64,000 nucleotides of DNA, from positions 32,001 to 96,000 of IMG/VR virus record IMGVR_UViG_651053023_000001; one strand, written 5' to 3'. Source of the DNA: a virus. Its lineage: Duplodnaviria; Heunggongvirae; Uroviricota; Caudoviricetes. Below are positions 43,785 to 46,700 of the stretch, piece after piece. Each line of letters starts with the position of its first letter. Position 1 is the stretch's first letter. A program made the position numbers.

Positions 43785-46700
43785 TTATCCTTTCCGTTTA
43801 CGGGCTTCGTTAATTTGTGTCTCAAGAATGCTTCGCGCCTGCGCAGTGGCAGCGGCCTTGTCCATTCCCTGACTCATGAAAAACTTTATGAGGTTGTTCG
43901 CCTGCGTTTGCAGGGCTTTTTTGAGAGCGTCGGCTTCAGCGCGAGCCTGGGCTTCCCTCACCCGCGATGCTTTTAGTTCGGCATTCTTCCTGTTTGCCGT
44001 GGTGCGAGCTTTTTTTAACAACCGGCGAACGTTGTCCGTGGCGCTATCTTTTGCGCGTAGTTTTTTGCCTAATGCATCCTGAGATTTCAGATACAGCTCA
44101 TACTCACGCGCAGCTTTAGCCTGATCCGTCGTTGTTGTCCGGTTGCGCGCGAGCGATTTAGCCAGTTCGCCTTTGAAATAGGTTGTTGTCTTCCGCTTGT
44201 CATCGCCGAAGGCTACCTGTTCAGCTGCTTTTTCCAGGGCAATAATGATGGCCTTGTGCCATGTGGGAGACTGAAAACGCGTCATAGCGTGCAACACATG
44301 TTTGCAGGCCACACCAGTCAGATCAGGGTTGCGGATCTTGGGGCATGCATACTCTTTTGGCGGCGCGACAGCATAGTTACCAGCCGTGGCCATATAACGA
44401 TACCAGTATTGATGGCGTCCACAATCACAGTCGAAAGATACCCGGCCCTTGCAGAGATCGGCAGCGATTCGGGCTTTTTTCGCACCGTCTTCAGCAATTT
44501 CCTCAACGGCTTTATCCCATTCCTCAAATCGAATTCTGACACGGTGATGCTGGTGGACCGACTCATCCGAGGCATTAACAGATATCAATGCAAGGTTGTG
44601 TTTTAGCCCGAGGAATGTCGCGGCTTTGATCCCTGTGCCATCAGAAACTTTGTTGTTAGCGCGTTTTATATCAATGCTGGTGGACTGCGCCACCAGCTGA
44701 GCATAGGTAATGCCGGGTACCGTGCTCTTGAATTTTGTTTTATGAGCCTGCCTTGAGGTGTTGAAGCTGCGTATATCTTCTGGCGTAAAGTAGGTGCCAT
44801 CTTTCTTTTTCCCAAGGCTGAGGAATGCCTCAAGTTCGCGGTTACGCATCCCCATAATCCTTGGGGTGAGTGTACGTCGCGCGTTTCGCCGATTCTGACG
44901 CTGCTGTTTACGGATAAGATCGAAGACCTTGTTAAAGTCTTTTGCACTTAATCCATCAGTCTGATAGCGACCAAGGTTGTCGCGAGCATATTCAGTTGGC
45001 ATTCATTTCCCTTACGCAATGGATAATGTCCCTATTACCTGGCCGTCGTATTGGAAATGGCGAATCATTTCGCGGATCCAGGTGGCAGGTGGGAGTTTTA
45101 ATTTTTTGCCAACAGTCATACCCTGAGACTCATCCTCAAGCCCGGCGGCGAGCGTCACAACCCAGCGTAGCTCTGCTATGCCCCACATACGGTAAGCCAG
45201 CAAATCCGGGCGATATTGCTCATCGGGAAGAACGTAATAAATCGTCAGATTCTTGTCGTTCGATTCACACATAAGCATCACCTCTTTGCGTAGCTCTGCC
45301 CTTAGTATTGGATCGGCTATGTTGCGGTCGTCATACCGCGACAGAGGATATTGCCGGGTGCTTTGGGTTGTAGTGATTGATGTAGCCATAGTCAGCCTGA
45401 CAGAAATAGATGATGGTGATTCTACCGCTAGTCATTTGTTGAATATTTAACTCAATAAAAGAAAATTATTAGTGCAATTTTGATTGTGAAATGTATCATT
45501 CTGCCCTTAAGTAGGTTCTTCATGAGGAAACAAAATTGGCAGAGCGTGTTGATGATGCAGAGCTGAGCATGAATCAGTTAGAAGCTCTCAAAGACATGGC
45601 CATCGATAACATCAGAAAGCAGGCACAGGTCGTGAGTCAGGTATTTACAGGGAAGTGTCGTTACTGCAATGAACCGATTGAATCAGGCATTTATTGTGAC
45701 GCTGAATGTGCGCAATGGCACAGGGAAGAGCAGGCCGCAAAACAGCGTAAATATGGCATGCGACCGGCAGGATTTGACTGATTATGTTGCGCTTTACTGA
45801 GGAAGAGTTTCAGGCTTTTAGTGAGCGTCGAAATAAGGGGCGGTCCAGGCCAAAAACCAAAAAGGATCCATTCTTATCGCTTGCGCCGGTAAAAGAAGTT
45901 TCTCCACATGCGAAGGCACTTGCAGCACTGGCAAAGAACCCAGACCTGCGCGACGGAAATTGCGAGCACTTCGAGCAGGTTTTCATTTTTGATTACTTCG
46001 AACGCAAGCACCCTGACATCTATGAGCTGTTGCATGCAACGCCTAACGGAGGGAAACGTTCAAAAGCAACCGCCGGGAAAATGAAGGCTGAAGGGCAGAA
46101 AAAAGGTTATCCGGACATGAGTCTCGATAAAGCATGCGGTATTTATCACGGCATGCGAATTGAGCTTAAAGAACCAAATGGTAAAGCCCCGACGAAAGAG
46201 CAGATCGCCTGGATGCGCAGGCTTAGAGAGGAAGGTTACTACGTCGTTCTTGCGTATGGTGCAGAACAAGCGATAACCGCCATCCTGGAATACATGAGCC
46301 TTAAAAAGGGTGAGGCTATTGAGCATGTATTGAACGGTGACAAGTGGTTGTACGCTACGTGAAATAATAAATTAATTAGTGCATATGTGTATCTTTGATA
46401 CAGCGCACATTAACATCGGGAGAATAATCGTGTCATCCAAGGCTAATTATGAATCGCTGGCATCGATCATGCCGCGTAATGAACAGGAAGCAGATGCTGA
46501 AGTGGACCCGGTAATCGCTGAAATGAATGCTCGCCTGGAGGCTGAATTTGCAGCTGAGAATGAACATACCACCCAGGGCGACTAGGACTGTTTTTTGTGT
46601 CGGTAGCGGTCCGTCACTCACTCGTGAGGACTGTGCTGCTATAGAAAAAACTGGCTGTTCAATCATTGCGGTTAACAATTCCTGGCTGATGTTCGATGAC

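What the first reader, a model, noticed from the sequence alone, without database searches (positions are those of the whole stretch)
43785..45002. SWIM zinc-finger protein with basic coiled-coil termini in the late region
Seen: a 405-aa ORF with a central CxC-Xn-CxH pattern typical of SWIM fingers, flanked by Lys/Arg-rich helical regions. Inference: a nucleic-acid-binding role (packaging, injection or regulation) is plausible but unproven.
Basis: partly seen in the sequence, partly recalled or inferred. Interest (0 to 1): 0.35.

Follow-up and report, generated by a model that had tools for sequence, protein, structure and literature searches.

The report
Phage P1 gp25: SWIM-like tail-morphogenesis protein
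The ORF is gene 25 of a P1-like phage, a long-known "tail stability" gene. It carries a real, strictly conserved but atypical SWIM-like zinc-finger core between very basic helical arms, and it is the one protein of its conserved neck/baseplate operon that the recent whole-virion structures of P1 do not place.

Summary
Window 43785-45002 on the minus strand (the finding gave no strand) encodes a 405-aa protein, 99.5% identical to phage P1 gp25 ("tail stability"). It is the second gene of the late operon 26-25-7-24-6-5.

The motif C192-x-C194-x38-C233-x-H235 occurs in 11 of 20,000 composition-matched shuffles. It is present in all 259 non-fragment homologues examined and is invariant at 23-43% identity.

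All 251 full-length members have pI above 9 (P1 gp25: net +35). The long C-terminal helix shows no significant heptad pattern, so "coiled coil" is unproven.

The order 26-25-7-24-6-5 is conserved across diverse phages. Cryo-EM papers place gp26, gp7, gp24, gp6 and gp5 in the virion. gp25 is in no model and no PDB entry.

Best reading: a zinc-stabilised, low-copy or transient factor acting at tail completion or the neck. Nucleic-acid binding is plausible but untested.

The parts
43785..45002 (-). Gene 25 CDS (405 aa plus stop); P1 gp25 'tail stability' protein, PHROG 1722
   Evidence: ORF list and translation. 99.5% aa identity to P1 gp25, differing only by S86A and F220C. phrog_1722 E = 3.8e-226.
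44718..45002 (-). Residues 1-95: basic, mostly helical N-terminal region (23% Lys/Arg, net +12), with conserved motifs such as R38 and L45-T-P47
   Evidence: Composition. AF2 helices 20-40, 47-52, 57-62 and 74-90. Conservation.
44208..44717 (-). Residues 96-265: alpha/beta core with the SWIM-like fold (three-stranded sheet 127-159, helices 162-185, strand 188-192, helix 195-208, loop, helices 234-242 and 246-261)
44298..44429 (-). Residues 192-235: putative zinc site CxC-x38-CxH, with the conserved insert GRHQYWYRY...E-x3-PK(I/V)RNP-x-L-x-G
   Evidence: 11 of 20,000 shuffles. Present in 259 of 259 non-fragment homologues. C192, C194, E217, P221, N225, G230, C233, K234 and H235 invariant in 71 diverse sequences.
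43788..44207 (-). Residues 266-405: basic C-terminal helical arm (24% Lys/Arg, net +18). It comprises one 84-residue helix (294-377) and a short terminal helix (382-404). Its length varies across the family (63-258 aa).
   Evidence: AF2. Composition. Length range. No significant heptad periodicity. The P1 record notes myosin-rod-like similarity for aa 277-403.
45012..45389 (-). Gene 26 (125 aa), first gene of the operon; T4 gp53-like baseplate plug
   Evidence: phrog_1269 'baseplate wedge subunit' E = 2.7e-40. Placed as a six-fold plug in P1 cryo-EM. Precedes gp25 homologues in most diverse loci.
43053..43781 (-). Gene 7 (242 aa), starting 3 nt after the gene 25 stop; hexameric stopper of the head-tail connector. 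N-terminal 85 aa are extremely acidic.
   Evidence: Identical in length and near-identical in sequence to PDB 9ums_B 'Gp7'. Described as stopper in PMC12810830. Junction sequence. pI 4.07. Adjacent to gp25 homologues in about 30 of 38 diverse loci.
42281..43066 (-). Gene 24 (261 aa from the annotated GTG start); hexameric tail terminator
   Evidence: PDB 8jan_y 'Gp24', E = 3e-171. PMC10304247.
41263..42279 (-). Gene 6, baseplate hub (T4 gp27-like)
   Evidence: P1 annotation. phrog_1390. Cryo-EM papers.
40638..41270 (-). Gene 5, baseplate spike (T4 gp5-like)
   Evidence: phrog_430. Cryo-EM papers.
45419..45437 (-). Late promoter LP26 driving 26-25-7-24-6-5. The C1 operator O26 lies at 45462-45478.
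   Evidence: Annotated in AF234172. An identical 19-mer and operator were found in the window.

Best explanation
The ORF is gene 25 of a P1-like phage-plasmid. Its product is a late, strongly basic morphogenetic protein built from four parts: (i) a basic helical N-terminal region; (ii) an alpha/beta core whose strand-CxC ... CxH-helix arrangement forms a divergent SWIM-type zinc site enlarged by a conserved 37-38-residue insert; (iii) a long basic helix of variable length; (iv) a short terminal helix.

I propose that it works at the head-proximal end of the tail, at tail completion and head-tail joining. Its partners would be its conserved operon neighbours, the stopper gp7 and the terminator gp24. 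It would be either a low-copy, flexibly or asymmetrically placed virion component or a factor that leaves after assembly. Without it the capped, extended tail would not be stably locked, which is what the annotated phenotype 'tail stability' describes.

In this model the zinc site is structural. It holds the conserved insert (GRHQYWYRY ... PKIRNP) as a binding surface for a partner protein or a polyanion. The basic arms contact acidic surfaces: the electronegative tube lumen, the acidic gp7 or the DNA end.

Shown here: gene identity, motif, fold similarity, charge, synteny, and absence from solved structures. Inferred: zinc binding, partners, location and copy number.
For: Identity and operon.
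- 99.5% identical to P1 gp25, annotated 'tail stability'.
- Late promoter LP26 is intact upstream.
- The gene 25 stop and the gene 7 start are 3 nt apart.

Motif. It is invariant in every non-fragment homologue and rare by chance.

Fold.
- BFVD hits include a SWIM-type phage protein at probability 0.93.
- PF04434 is a weak hit in 21 of 71 diverse members; the next family has 4.
- In the AF2 model C192 ends a strand and C233-x-H235 opens a helix.

Synteny. The order gp26-gp25-gp7-gp24-gp6-gp5 is found in nearly all of 38 diverse viral contigs. gp26-like, gp25-like and gp7-like genes are also adjacent in Acinetobacter phage ABMM1, and the gp25-like and gp7-like genes are adjacent in Xanthomonas phage Rb1.

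Neighbours have assigned places. gp7 is the hexameric stopper that docks on the gp24 terminator; gp26, gp6 and gp5 are baseplate parts.

gp25 has no assigned place. It is absent from the PDB by sequence and by profile. It is never mentioned in the whole-virion paper, which states it identified 'almost all proteins'.

Virion association. gp25 gave 2 peptides (8.4% coverage) in purified P1 virions. That is the same weak level as gp7 and gp16, both since modelled in the virion cryo-EM structures (gp7 as a hexameric ring).

Charge. All 251 full-length members have pI above 9, median net charge +34. The P1 tube lumen is reported to be electronegative, and gp7 has pI 4.07.
Against: - There is no direct evidence for zinc, for any partner, or for a location.
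- The phenotype comes only from the short database annotation. I could not read the original 1983 electron-microscopy paper.
- The operon mixes neck and baseplate genes, so synteny alone cannot distinguish a neck role from a baseplate-hub role.
- A CRISPRi screen scored gene 25 knock-down at an efficiency of plating of only about 0.11 and called it non-essential. The structural gene 26 behaved the same way, so knock-down at the 5' end of the operon may simply be weak.
- Two peptides in a virion preparation could be carry-over.
- The AF2 insert (residues about 200-228) loses confidence when the domain is modelled alone.
Confidence: 0.5

Rival explanations
1. gp25 is a DNA-end-binding pilot or ejection protein. 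A few copies sit in the neck or tail channel on the packaged DNA end, leave with the DNA at infection, and protect or hold the ends. That would make it a functional analogue of T4 gp2 or Mu N. This partly overlaps the best explanation but adds a specific DNA function.
For: - Charge is conserved and extreme: pI above 9 in 251 of 251 members, net +35 in P1.
- The insert around the zinc site is rich in conserved Arg/Lys and aromatic residues.
- It has a weak, low-copy-like virion signal but is unresolved in symmetrised maps, like the lumen-resident tape measure Sit.
- It is adjacent to the stopper gene.
- The T4 gene order is parallel: 4 (head closure), 2 (DNA end protector), 3 (terminator), next to 53 and 5.
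Against: - There is no homology to T4 gp2 (no Cys at all; hhalign probability 0.3%) or to Mu gp43/N (probability 0.1%).
- The annotated phenotype is a tail defect, not a DNA-stability or head defect.
- No DNA-binding data exist.
- SWIM domains often mediate protein-protein contacts (own knowledge).
Confidence: 0.15
2. gp25 is a non-structural assembly chaperone or scaffold that is absent from the mature virion. It would assist hub/plug (gp26-gp6-gp5) assembly or terminator loading, and the two MS peptides would be contamination.
For: - It is not seen in any cryo-EM model.
- Its architecture resembles phage scaffolding proteins (own knowledge): long helices of variable length (63-258 aa) ending in a small helical module.
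- It sits immediately downstream of the baseplate plug gene 26.
- The MS signal is weak.
Against: - The MS signal equals that of gp7 and gp16, which turned out to be real six-copy components.
- An invariant metal site and an invariant polar insert suggest a specific, retained binding function rather than a generic scaffold.
- K/R-rich proteins are under-sampled by tryptic MS (inference).
Confidence: 0.22
3. gp25 is an external neck appendage (collar or whisker-like fibre) attached to gp7/gp24 and too flexible to be resolved.
For: - It has a long helix of about 12 nm plus a globular domain.
- It is a neighbour of the neck genes.
- The neck density was described as broken in the 2023 map.
Against: - The helix has no significant heptad pattern, which a trimeric fibre would need.
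- No neck fibre density is reported in the P1 papers read here.
- A pI of 10 and a zinc site are unusual for exposed fibres (inference).
Confidence: 0.05
4. gp25 is a DNA-binding regulator or nucleoid-associated protein, as one homologue is annotated ('transcriptional regulator MvaT' in Xanthomonas phage Rb1).
For: It is a basic protein with a zinc finger.
Against: - It is always embedded in the structural cassette and transcribed from a late promoter.
- It has no Pfam hit to MvaT, H-NS or any regulator family.
- Gene 25 mutants are annotated with a tail-specific defect.
- The Rb1 label is most likely an automatic mis-annotation.
Confidence: 0.03

Closest known systems
Bacteriophage P1 gp25 ('tail stability' protein; PHROG 1722, NCBI 'phage tail protein')
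   Same: It is the same gene: 99.5% aa identity, the same length, and the same operon position between genes 26 and 7.
   Different: There are only two substitutions, S86A and F220C. The database records and the papers read here give no domain, fold or location for it. HHpred in 2022 found nothing above 50%.
SWIM zinc finger (Pfam PF04434; e.g. ZSWIM8, PDB 9rwz chain M)
   Same: It has the CxC...CxH ligand signature. The CxC lies at the end of a beta-strand and the CxH opens a helix. ZSWIM8 is the best PDB fold match. Sub-threshold PF04434 hits occur in 21 of 71 family members.
   Different: The spacer is 36-43 residues and contains a family-specific, highly conserved insert. There is no Pfam hit for P1 gp25 or its close relatives. 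The context is a phage tail/neck operon rather than SNF2 ATPases, transposases or E3 ligases.
Small uncharacterised SWIM-type phage proteins (BFVD A0A2Z3EGZ5, A0A8S5M7U3, A0A7S5REV2; Achromobacter phage Motura A0A514CSJ7)
   Same: The predicted folds are similar to the gp25 core (Foldseek probability 0.93-1.00, E 4e-3 to 3.5e-2).
   Different: They are 139-256 aa and cannot hold all of gp25's N- and C-terminal arms; their sequences were not retrieved. TM-scores are only 0.36-0.52. Their functions and genomic contexts are unknown and were not examined.
T4 gp2 (DNA end protector)
   Same: Both are basic. The T4 gene sits between the head-closure and tail-terminator genes, next to genes 53 and 5. 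This parallels gene 25 between gene 26 (gp53-like) and the stopper and terminator genes.
   Different: There is no sequence or profile similarity (hhalign probability 0.3%). T4 gp2 has no cysteine and is 274 aa. The analogy is positional only.
Mu gp43 / N (DNA circularisation protein)
   Same: Both are encoded among baseplate genes. Mu N travels with the DNA (own knowledge), which makes it a candidate functional analogue.
   Different: There is no profile similarity (hhalign probability 0.1%), and the size and domains differ.

Membership tests
P1 gp25 / PHROG 1722 family | Full-length, high-scoring match to the family profile and to P1 gp25 | tested here: met
   phrog_1722 E = 3.8e-226 over residues 1-405. 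tblastn gives 99.5% identity and 100% coverage to P1 gp25.
P1 gp25 / PHROG 1722 family | Position in the late operon 26-25-7-24-6-5 | tested here: met
   Window ORF order. P1 annotation. The same order is found in diverse viral contigs.
SWIM zinc finger (PF04434) | CxC-xn-CxH ligand signature, conserved across homologues | tested here: met
   C192-x-C194-x38-C233-x-H235. Present in 259 of 259 non-fragment homologues; invariant in 71 diverse sequences.
SWIM zinc finger (PF04434) | Short spacer between CxC and CxH (about 6-25 residues in the founding description; recalled from memory, Makarova et al. 2002) | tested here: not met
   The spacer is 36-43 residues, mostly 37 or 38.
SWIM zinc finger (PF04434) | Match to the Pfam HMM at or above the gathering score | tested here: not met
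   No hit at E up to 10 for this protein or 30 close relatives. There are only sub-threshold hits in 21 of 71 diverse members, best E 0.015. None of 10 further members checked individually hit.
SWIM zinc finger (PF04434) | SWIM fold: strand(s) carrying CxC, helix opening with CxH, similarity to a solved SWIM domain | tested here: met
SWIM zinc finger (PF04434) | Binds one zinc ion through the four ligands | not testable with these tools
   Needs metal analysis of purified protein.
Coiled-coil protein | Heptad periodicity of apolar residues in the long helix | tested here: not met
   Best a/d enrichment of helix 294-377 is reached by 149 of 1000 shuffles. There are only weak Pfam hits to coiled-coil families.
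T4 gp2 DNA end protector | Sequence or profile homology | tested here: not met
   hhalign probability 0.3%; T4 gp2 has no Cys.
Mu N / DNA_circ_N family | Sequence or profile homology | tested here: not met
   hhalign probability 0.1%. No Pfam hit.
Structurally placed P1 virion proteins | Chain present in a deposited P1 structure | tested here: not met
   No PDB sequence matches gp25 or its family profile. gp7 (9ums_B) and gp24 (8jan_y) do match.

The most novel reading that the evidence does not exclude
gp25 is a zinc-finger pilot protein that sits on the packaged DNA end in the P1 neck or tail channel and is injected with the DNA. It then binds or joins the DNA ends. This would make it the non-homologous counterpart of T4 gp2 and Mu N. 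It would also make it a candidate for the never-identified protein reported to hold abortively transduced P1 DNA in a circular form (recalled from memory: Sandri and Berger 1980; I could not retrieve that paper).
Probability: 0.12. Interest if true: 0.75.

Novelty: new variant of a known kind. Interest (0 to 1): 0.4.

Why it matters
P1 is a classical model phage and the standard transducing phage of E. coli. Recent cryo-EM work has placed nearly every morphogenetic protein in its virion. gp25 is a conspicuous exception. It is defined by conditional-lethal mutants, conserved across more than 600 sequence clusters of P1-like and more distant myophages, and weakly detected in virions. It has no fold, location or mechanism in the literature I could read.

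This analysis shows an invariant, SWIM-like putative zinc site, a conserved arginine- and aromatic-rich insert, and a universally high positive charge. Together these give specific, cheap experiments: metal analysis, ligand mutants, DNA-end binding, and sub-assembly proteomics. They also give a concrete shape to look for in asymmetric reconstructions of the neck and tail lumen.

It also extends the SWIM fold to phage tail/neck morphogenesis. The expanded spacer explains why standard domain searches miss it.

Tried and rejected
- **Pfam and NCBIfam on gp25 and 30 close relatives.** No SWIM or other meaningful hit. Ten further members scanned individually also showed no SWIM hit. Only the scan of 71 diverse members revealed the recurrent weak SWIM signal.
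- **PDB by sequence (phmmer) and by family profile.** Nothing.
- **AFDB50 Foldseek.** The library was not available.
- **First viral-contig scan.** It returned only near-identical P1 loci. I re-ran it with a distant member first.
- **Homology to T4 gp2 and Mu N.** Rejected by hhalign.
- **Apparent 896-aa 'fusion' in locus L091.** This was a wrong-frame ORF in GC-rich DNA, not a domain fusion.
- **Longer family members such as the 501-aa P0150.** They only have a longer helical C-terminus and no extra domain.
- **Coiled-coil heptad test.** Not significant.
- **Original papers.** The P1 genome paper and the 1983 EM paper on mutant phenotypes were not held in the library.
- **Literature searches** for SWIM fingers in phage virions, 'tail stability protein' proteomics and P1 abortive-transduction end-binding protein gave nothing usable.
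Full report
**What is at the coordinates.**

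Window 43785-45002 holds a 405-aa ORF on the minus strand (ATG start, stop included). The plus-strand reading is broken by stops. The surrounding 9 kb is 98.7% identical in DNA to bacteriophage P1.

The protein is 99.5% identical to P1 gp25, product of gene 25, annotated 'tail stability'. The only differences are S86A and F220C. It matches PHROG 1722 ('tail protein') end to end, E = 3.8e-226.

It is the second gene of the late operon 26-25-7-24-6-5. The late promoter LP26 and the C1 operator O26 are present unchanged at 45419-45437 and 45462-45478. Gene 7 starts 3 nt after the gene 25 stop.

Yes. The motif is C192-D-C194-(38 residues)-C233-K-H235.

- It arises in 11 of 20,000 composition-preserving shuffles.
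- A profile search of 1.84 billion representative proteins found 619 clusters with E up to 1e-3, nearly all 330-450 aa.
- All 259 non-fragment homologues in hand carry CxC-x36-43-CxH, mostly with a 37- or 38-residue spacer.
- In 71 sequences only 23-43% identical to P1 gp25, the invariant residues are G97, C192, C194, E217, P221, N225, G230, C233, K234 and H235.
- The spacer is itself a conserved motif: G-R-H-x-[YF]-W-[YF]-R-Y ... E-x3-P-K-[IV]-R-N-P-x-L-x-G.
- C220, inside the spacer, is private to this allele (Phe in P1) and not conserved.

The flanks are Lys/Arg-rich as described. Residues 1-95 are 23% K/R and residues 266-405 are 24% K/R. The whole protein has pI 10.08 and net charge +35. 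AlphaFold2 (mean pLDDT 83, pTM 0.71) predicts helical flanks, including a single 84-residue helix at 294-377.

'Coiled coil' is not established. The best heptad a/d enrichment of that helix is matched by 149 of 1000 shuffles.

**Is it a SWIM finger?**

Evidence against canonical membership:
- Pfam PF04434 does not hit this protein or 30 close relatives even at E up to 10.
- The spacer is well outside the short range I recall for the family.

Evidence that it is SWIM-like:
- Among 71 diverse members, PF04434 is by far the most frequent weak hit: 21 members, best E 0.015. The next family has 4.
- Foldseek against predicted viral structures puts three small uncharacterised phage proteins and a 'SWIM-type domain-containing protein' at the top, probability 0.93-1.00.
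- In the model, C192 ends a beta-strand and C233-x-H235 opens a helix. That is the arrangement I recall for SWIM.

I therefore call it a divergent SWIM-like module with a family-specific 37-38-residue insert. Zinc binding itself is inferred, not shown.

**Context.**

In nearly all of 38 diverse viral contigs the order gp26-gp25-gp7-gp24-gp6-gp5 is conserved. gp7 usually lies immediately downstream of gp25. In two distant cultured phages, Acinetobacter ABMM1 and Xanthomonas Rb1, the gp25-like and gp7-like genes are adjacent; in ABMM1 a gp26-like gene precedes them.

The neighbours now have known places:
- gp24 is the hexameric tail terminator (PDB 8jan; PMC10304247).
- gp7 is the hexameric stopper that caps the adaptor PmgC and docks on gp24 (PDB 9ums; PMC12810830).
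- gp26 is the six-fold baseplate plug, gp6 the hub and gp5 the spike.

gp25, by contrast, matches no PDB chain by sequence or profile. [quoted passage not shown]

The virion proteome of Gonzales et al. detected gp25 with two peptides (8.4% coverage). That is the same weak class as gp7 and gp16, and HHpred found nothing above 50% for any of the three. gp7 and gp16 have since been modelled in the virion structures (gp7 as a hexameric ring), so the weak signal is compatible with a real low-copy component. This is an inference.

A CRISPRi screen scored genes 26 and 25 as non-essential (efficiency of plating about 0.1), while 7, 24, 6 and 5 were essential. Gene 26 encodes a structural protein, and knock-down there should be polar on the essential genes downstream. 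I therefore read this as weak knock-down, not as proof of dispensability.

**A conserved physical property.**

All 251 full-length family members have pI above 9 (median 10.06). Net charge ranges from +9 to +51 (median +34). This holds whether or not their gp7 carries the acidic N-terminal extension seen in the P1 clade. The C-terminal helical arm varies from 63 to 258 residues.

**Most likely mechanism (confidence about 0.5).**

gp25 acts at the head-proximal end of the tail, at tail completion and head-tail joining, with gp24 and gp7. It is either a low-copy, flexible or asymmetric virion component or a factor that leaves after assembly. The zinc site rigidifies the conserved insert as a binding surface. 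The basic arms contact acidic surfaces: the tube lumen reported as electronegative, acidic gp7 (pI 4.07), or the DNA end.

Shown: identity, motif, fold similarity, charge, synteny, and absence from structures. Inferred: zinc, partners, location and copy number.

**Rivals.**

1. A DNA-end-binding pilot protein, functionally like T4 gp2 or Mu N (0.15). The T4 gene order 4-2-3 next to 53-5 parallels 26-25-7-24. However, there is no homology to gp2 or Mu N, and the annotated defect is in tails.
2. A non-virion chaperone or scaffold, possibly for the hub or plug (0.22).
3. An external neck fibre (0.05). This is disfavoured by the lack of heptads and of reported density.
4. A regulator, as mis-annotated in phage Rb1 (0.03).

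**Novelty and interest.**

The gene is known. Its SWIM-like zinc core, conserved insert and universal basicity are not described in any paper or record I could read: 'SWIM' and 'zinc' occur zero times in the P1 structure and proteome papers. I rate it a new variant of a known kind and moderately interesting (0.4). It turns the last unplaced protein of a conserved neck/baseplate operon in a model phage into a testable object. The mechanism remains inferential.

Noticed in passing
window 50750-55625: About 4.9 kb is absent from P1 (AF234172), inserted between pmgS and pap. It holds two 296-aa IS3-type transposase ORFs (51129-52019 and 54695-55585; rve plus HTH_21). These flank an IS66-family fragment (52972-53391) and a Mu-transposase/rve-like ORF on the minus strand (53317-54291). 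It looks like a composite or nested IS insertion.
   Followed up: partly
window 56998-61685 and 62024-62906: Two further stretches have no megablast match to P1 in the pmgT-upfO region. The first encodes two Ead/Ea22-like proteins (57511-58248 and 59242-59997), typical of lambdoid phages. Only about 53% of window 45000-64000 is covered by any P1-like phage record.
   Followed up: partly
window 44343-44345 (codon 220 of gene 25): This allele has F220C relative to P1. The change adds a non-conserved fifth cysteine inside the spacer of the putative zinc site. Homologues have F, Y or P here. The other difference is S86A.
   Followed up: yes
window 43527-43781 (gp7 residues 1-85): The N-terminal 85 residues of the stopper gp7 are extremely acidic (25 D/E against 2 K/R, pI about 4). 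This extension is specific to the P1 clade; distant gp7 homologues consist only of the roughly 160-aa core. It sits next to the gene for the very basic gp25, but gp25 is equally basic in phages that lack the extension.
   Followed up: partly
L001 7614-7991 (AF234172 gene 26 record): The GenBank note for gp26 (125 aa) repeats the gp25 note 'region of aa 277-403 similar to ... myosin II heavy chain'. That is impossible for a 125-aa protein, so it is a copy-paste annotation slip in the P1 record.
   Followed up: no
L003 5809-6888 (Xanthomonas phage Rb1): The gp25 homologue is annotated 'transcriptional regulator MvaT'. In phage JL22 the operon carries a 'tail tape measure' label. Both look like automatic mis-annotations.
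   Followed up: partly
window 42281-43084: The mechanical ORF for gene 24 starts at a TTG (267 aa). The P1 annotation and the PDB chain (261 aa) correspond to a start 18 nt downstream, at 43066.
   Followed up: yes
L163 (T4 75424-79686): The T4 genes 4 (head closure), 2 (DNA end protector) and 3 (tail terminator) lie back-to-back with 53 and 5. This mirrors the mixed neck-plus-baseplate content of the P1-type cassette 26-25-7-24-6-5. It may reflect an old linkage of these functions.
   Followed up: partly
window 36282-36435 and 37867-37942: There are three tRNA genes: Asn-GTT, Thr-TGT, and a CAT-anticodon tRNA that ARAGORN calls Met. They correspond to the P1 tRNA genes; P1 annotates the CAT one as tRNA-Ile2.
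   Followed up: no
literature (PMC10695390): CRISPRi scored the structural baseplate plug gene 26 and gene 25 as non-essential (efficiency of plating about 0.1). The downstream genes of the same operon scored essential. This is unexpected if knock-down were polar, and it suggests weak repression at the operon's 5' end or internal promoters.
   Followed up: no
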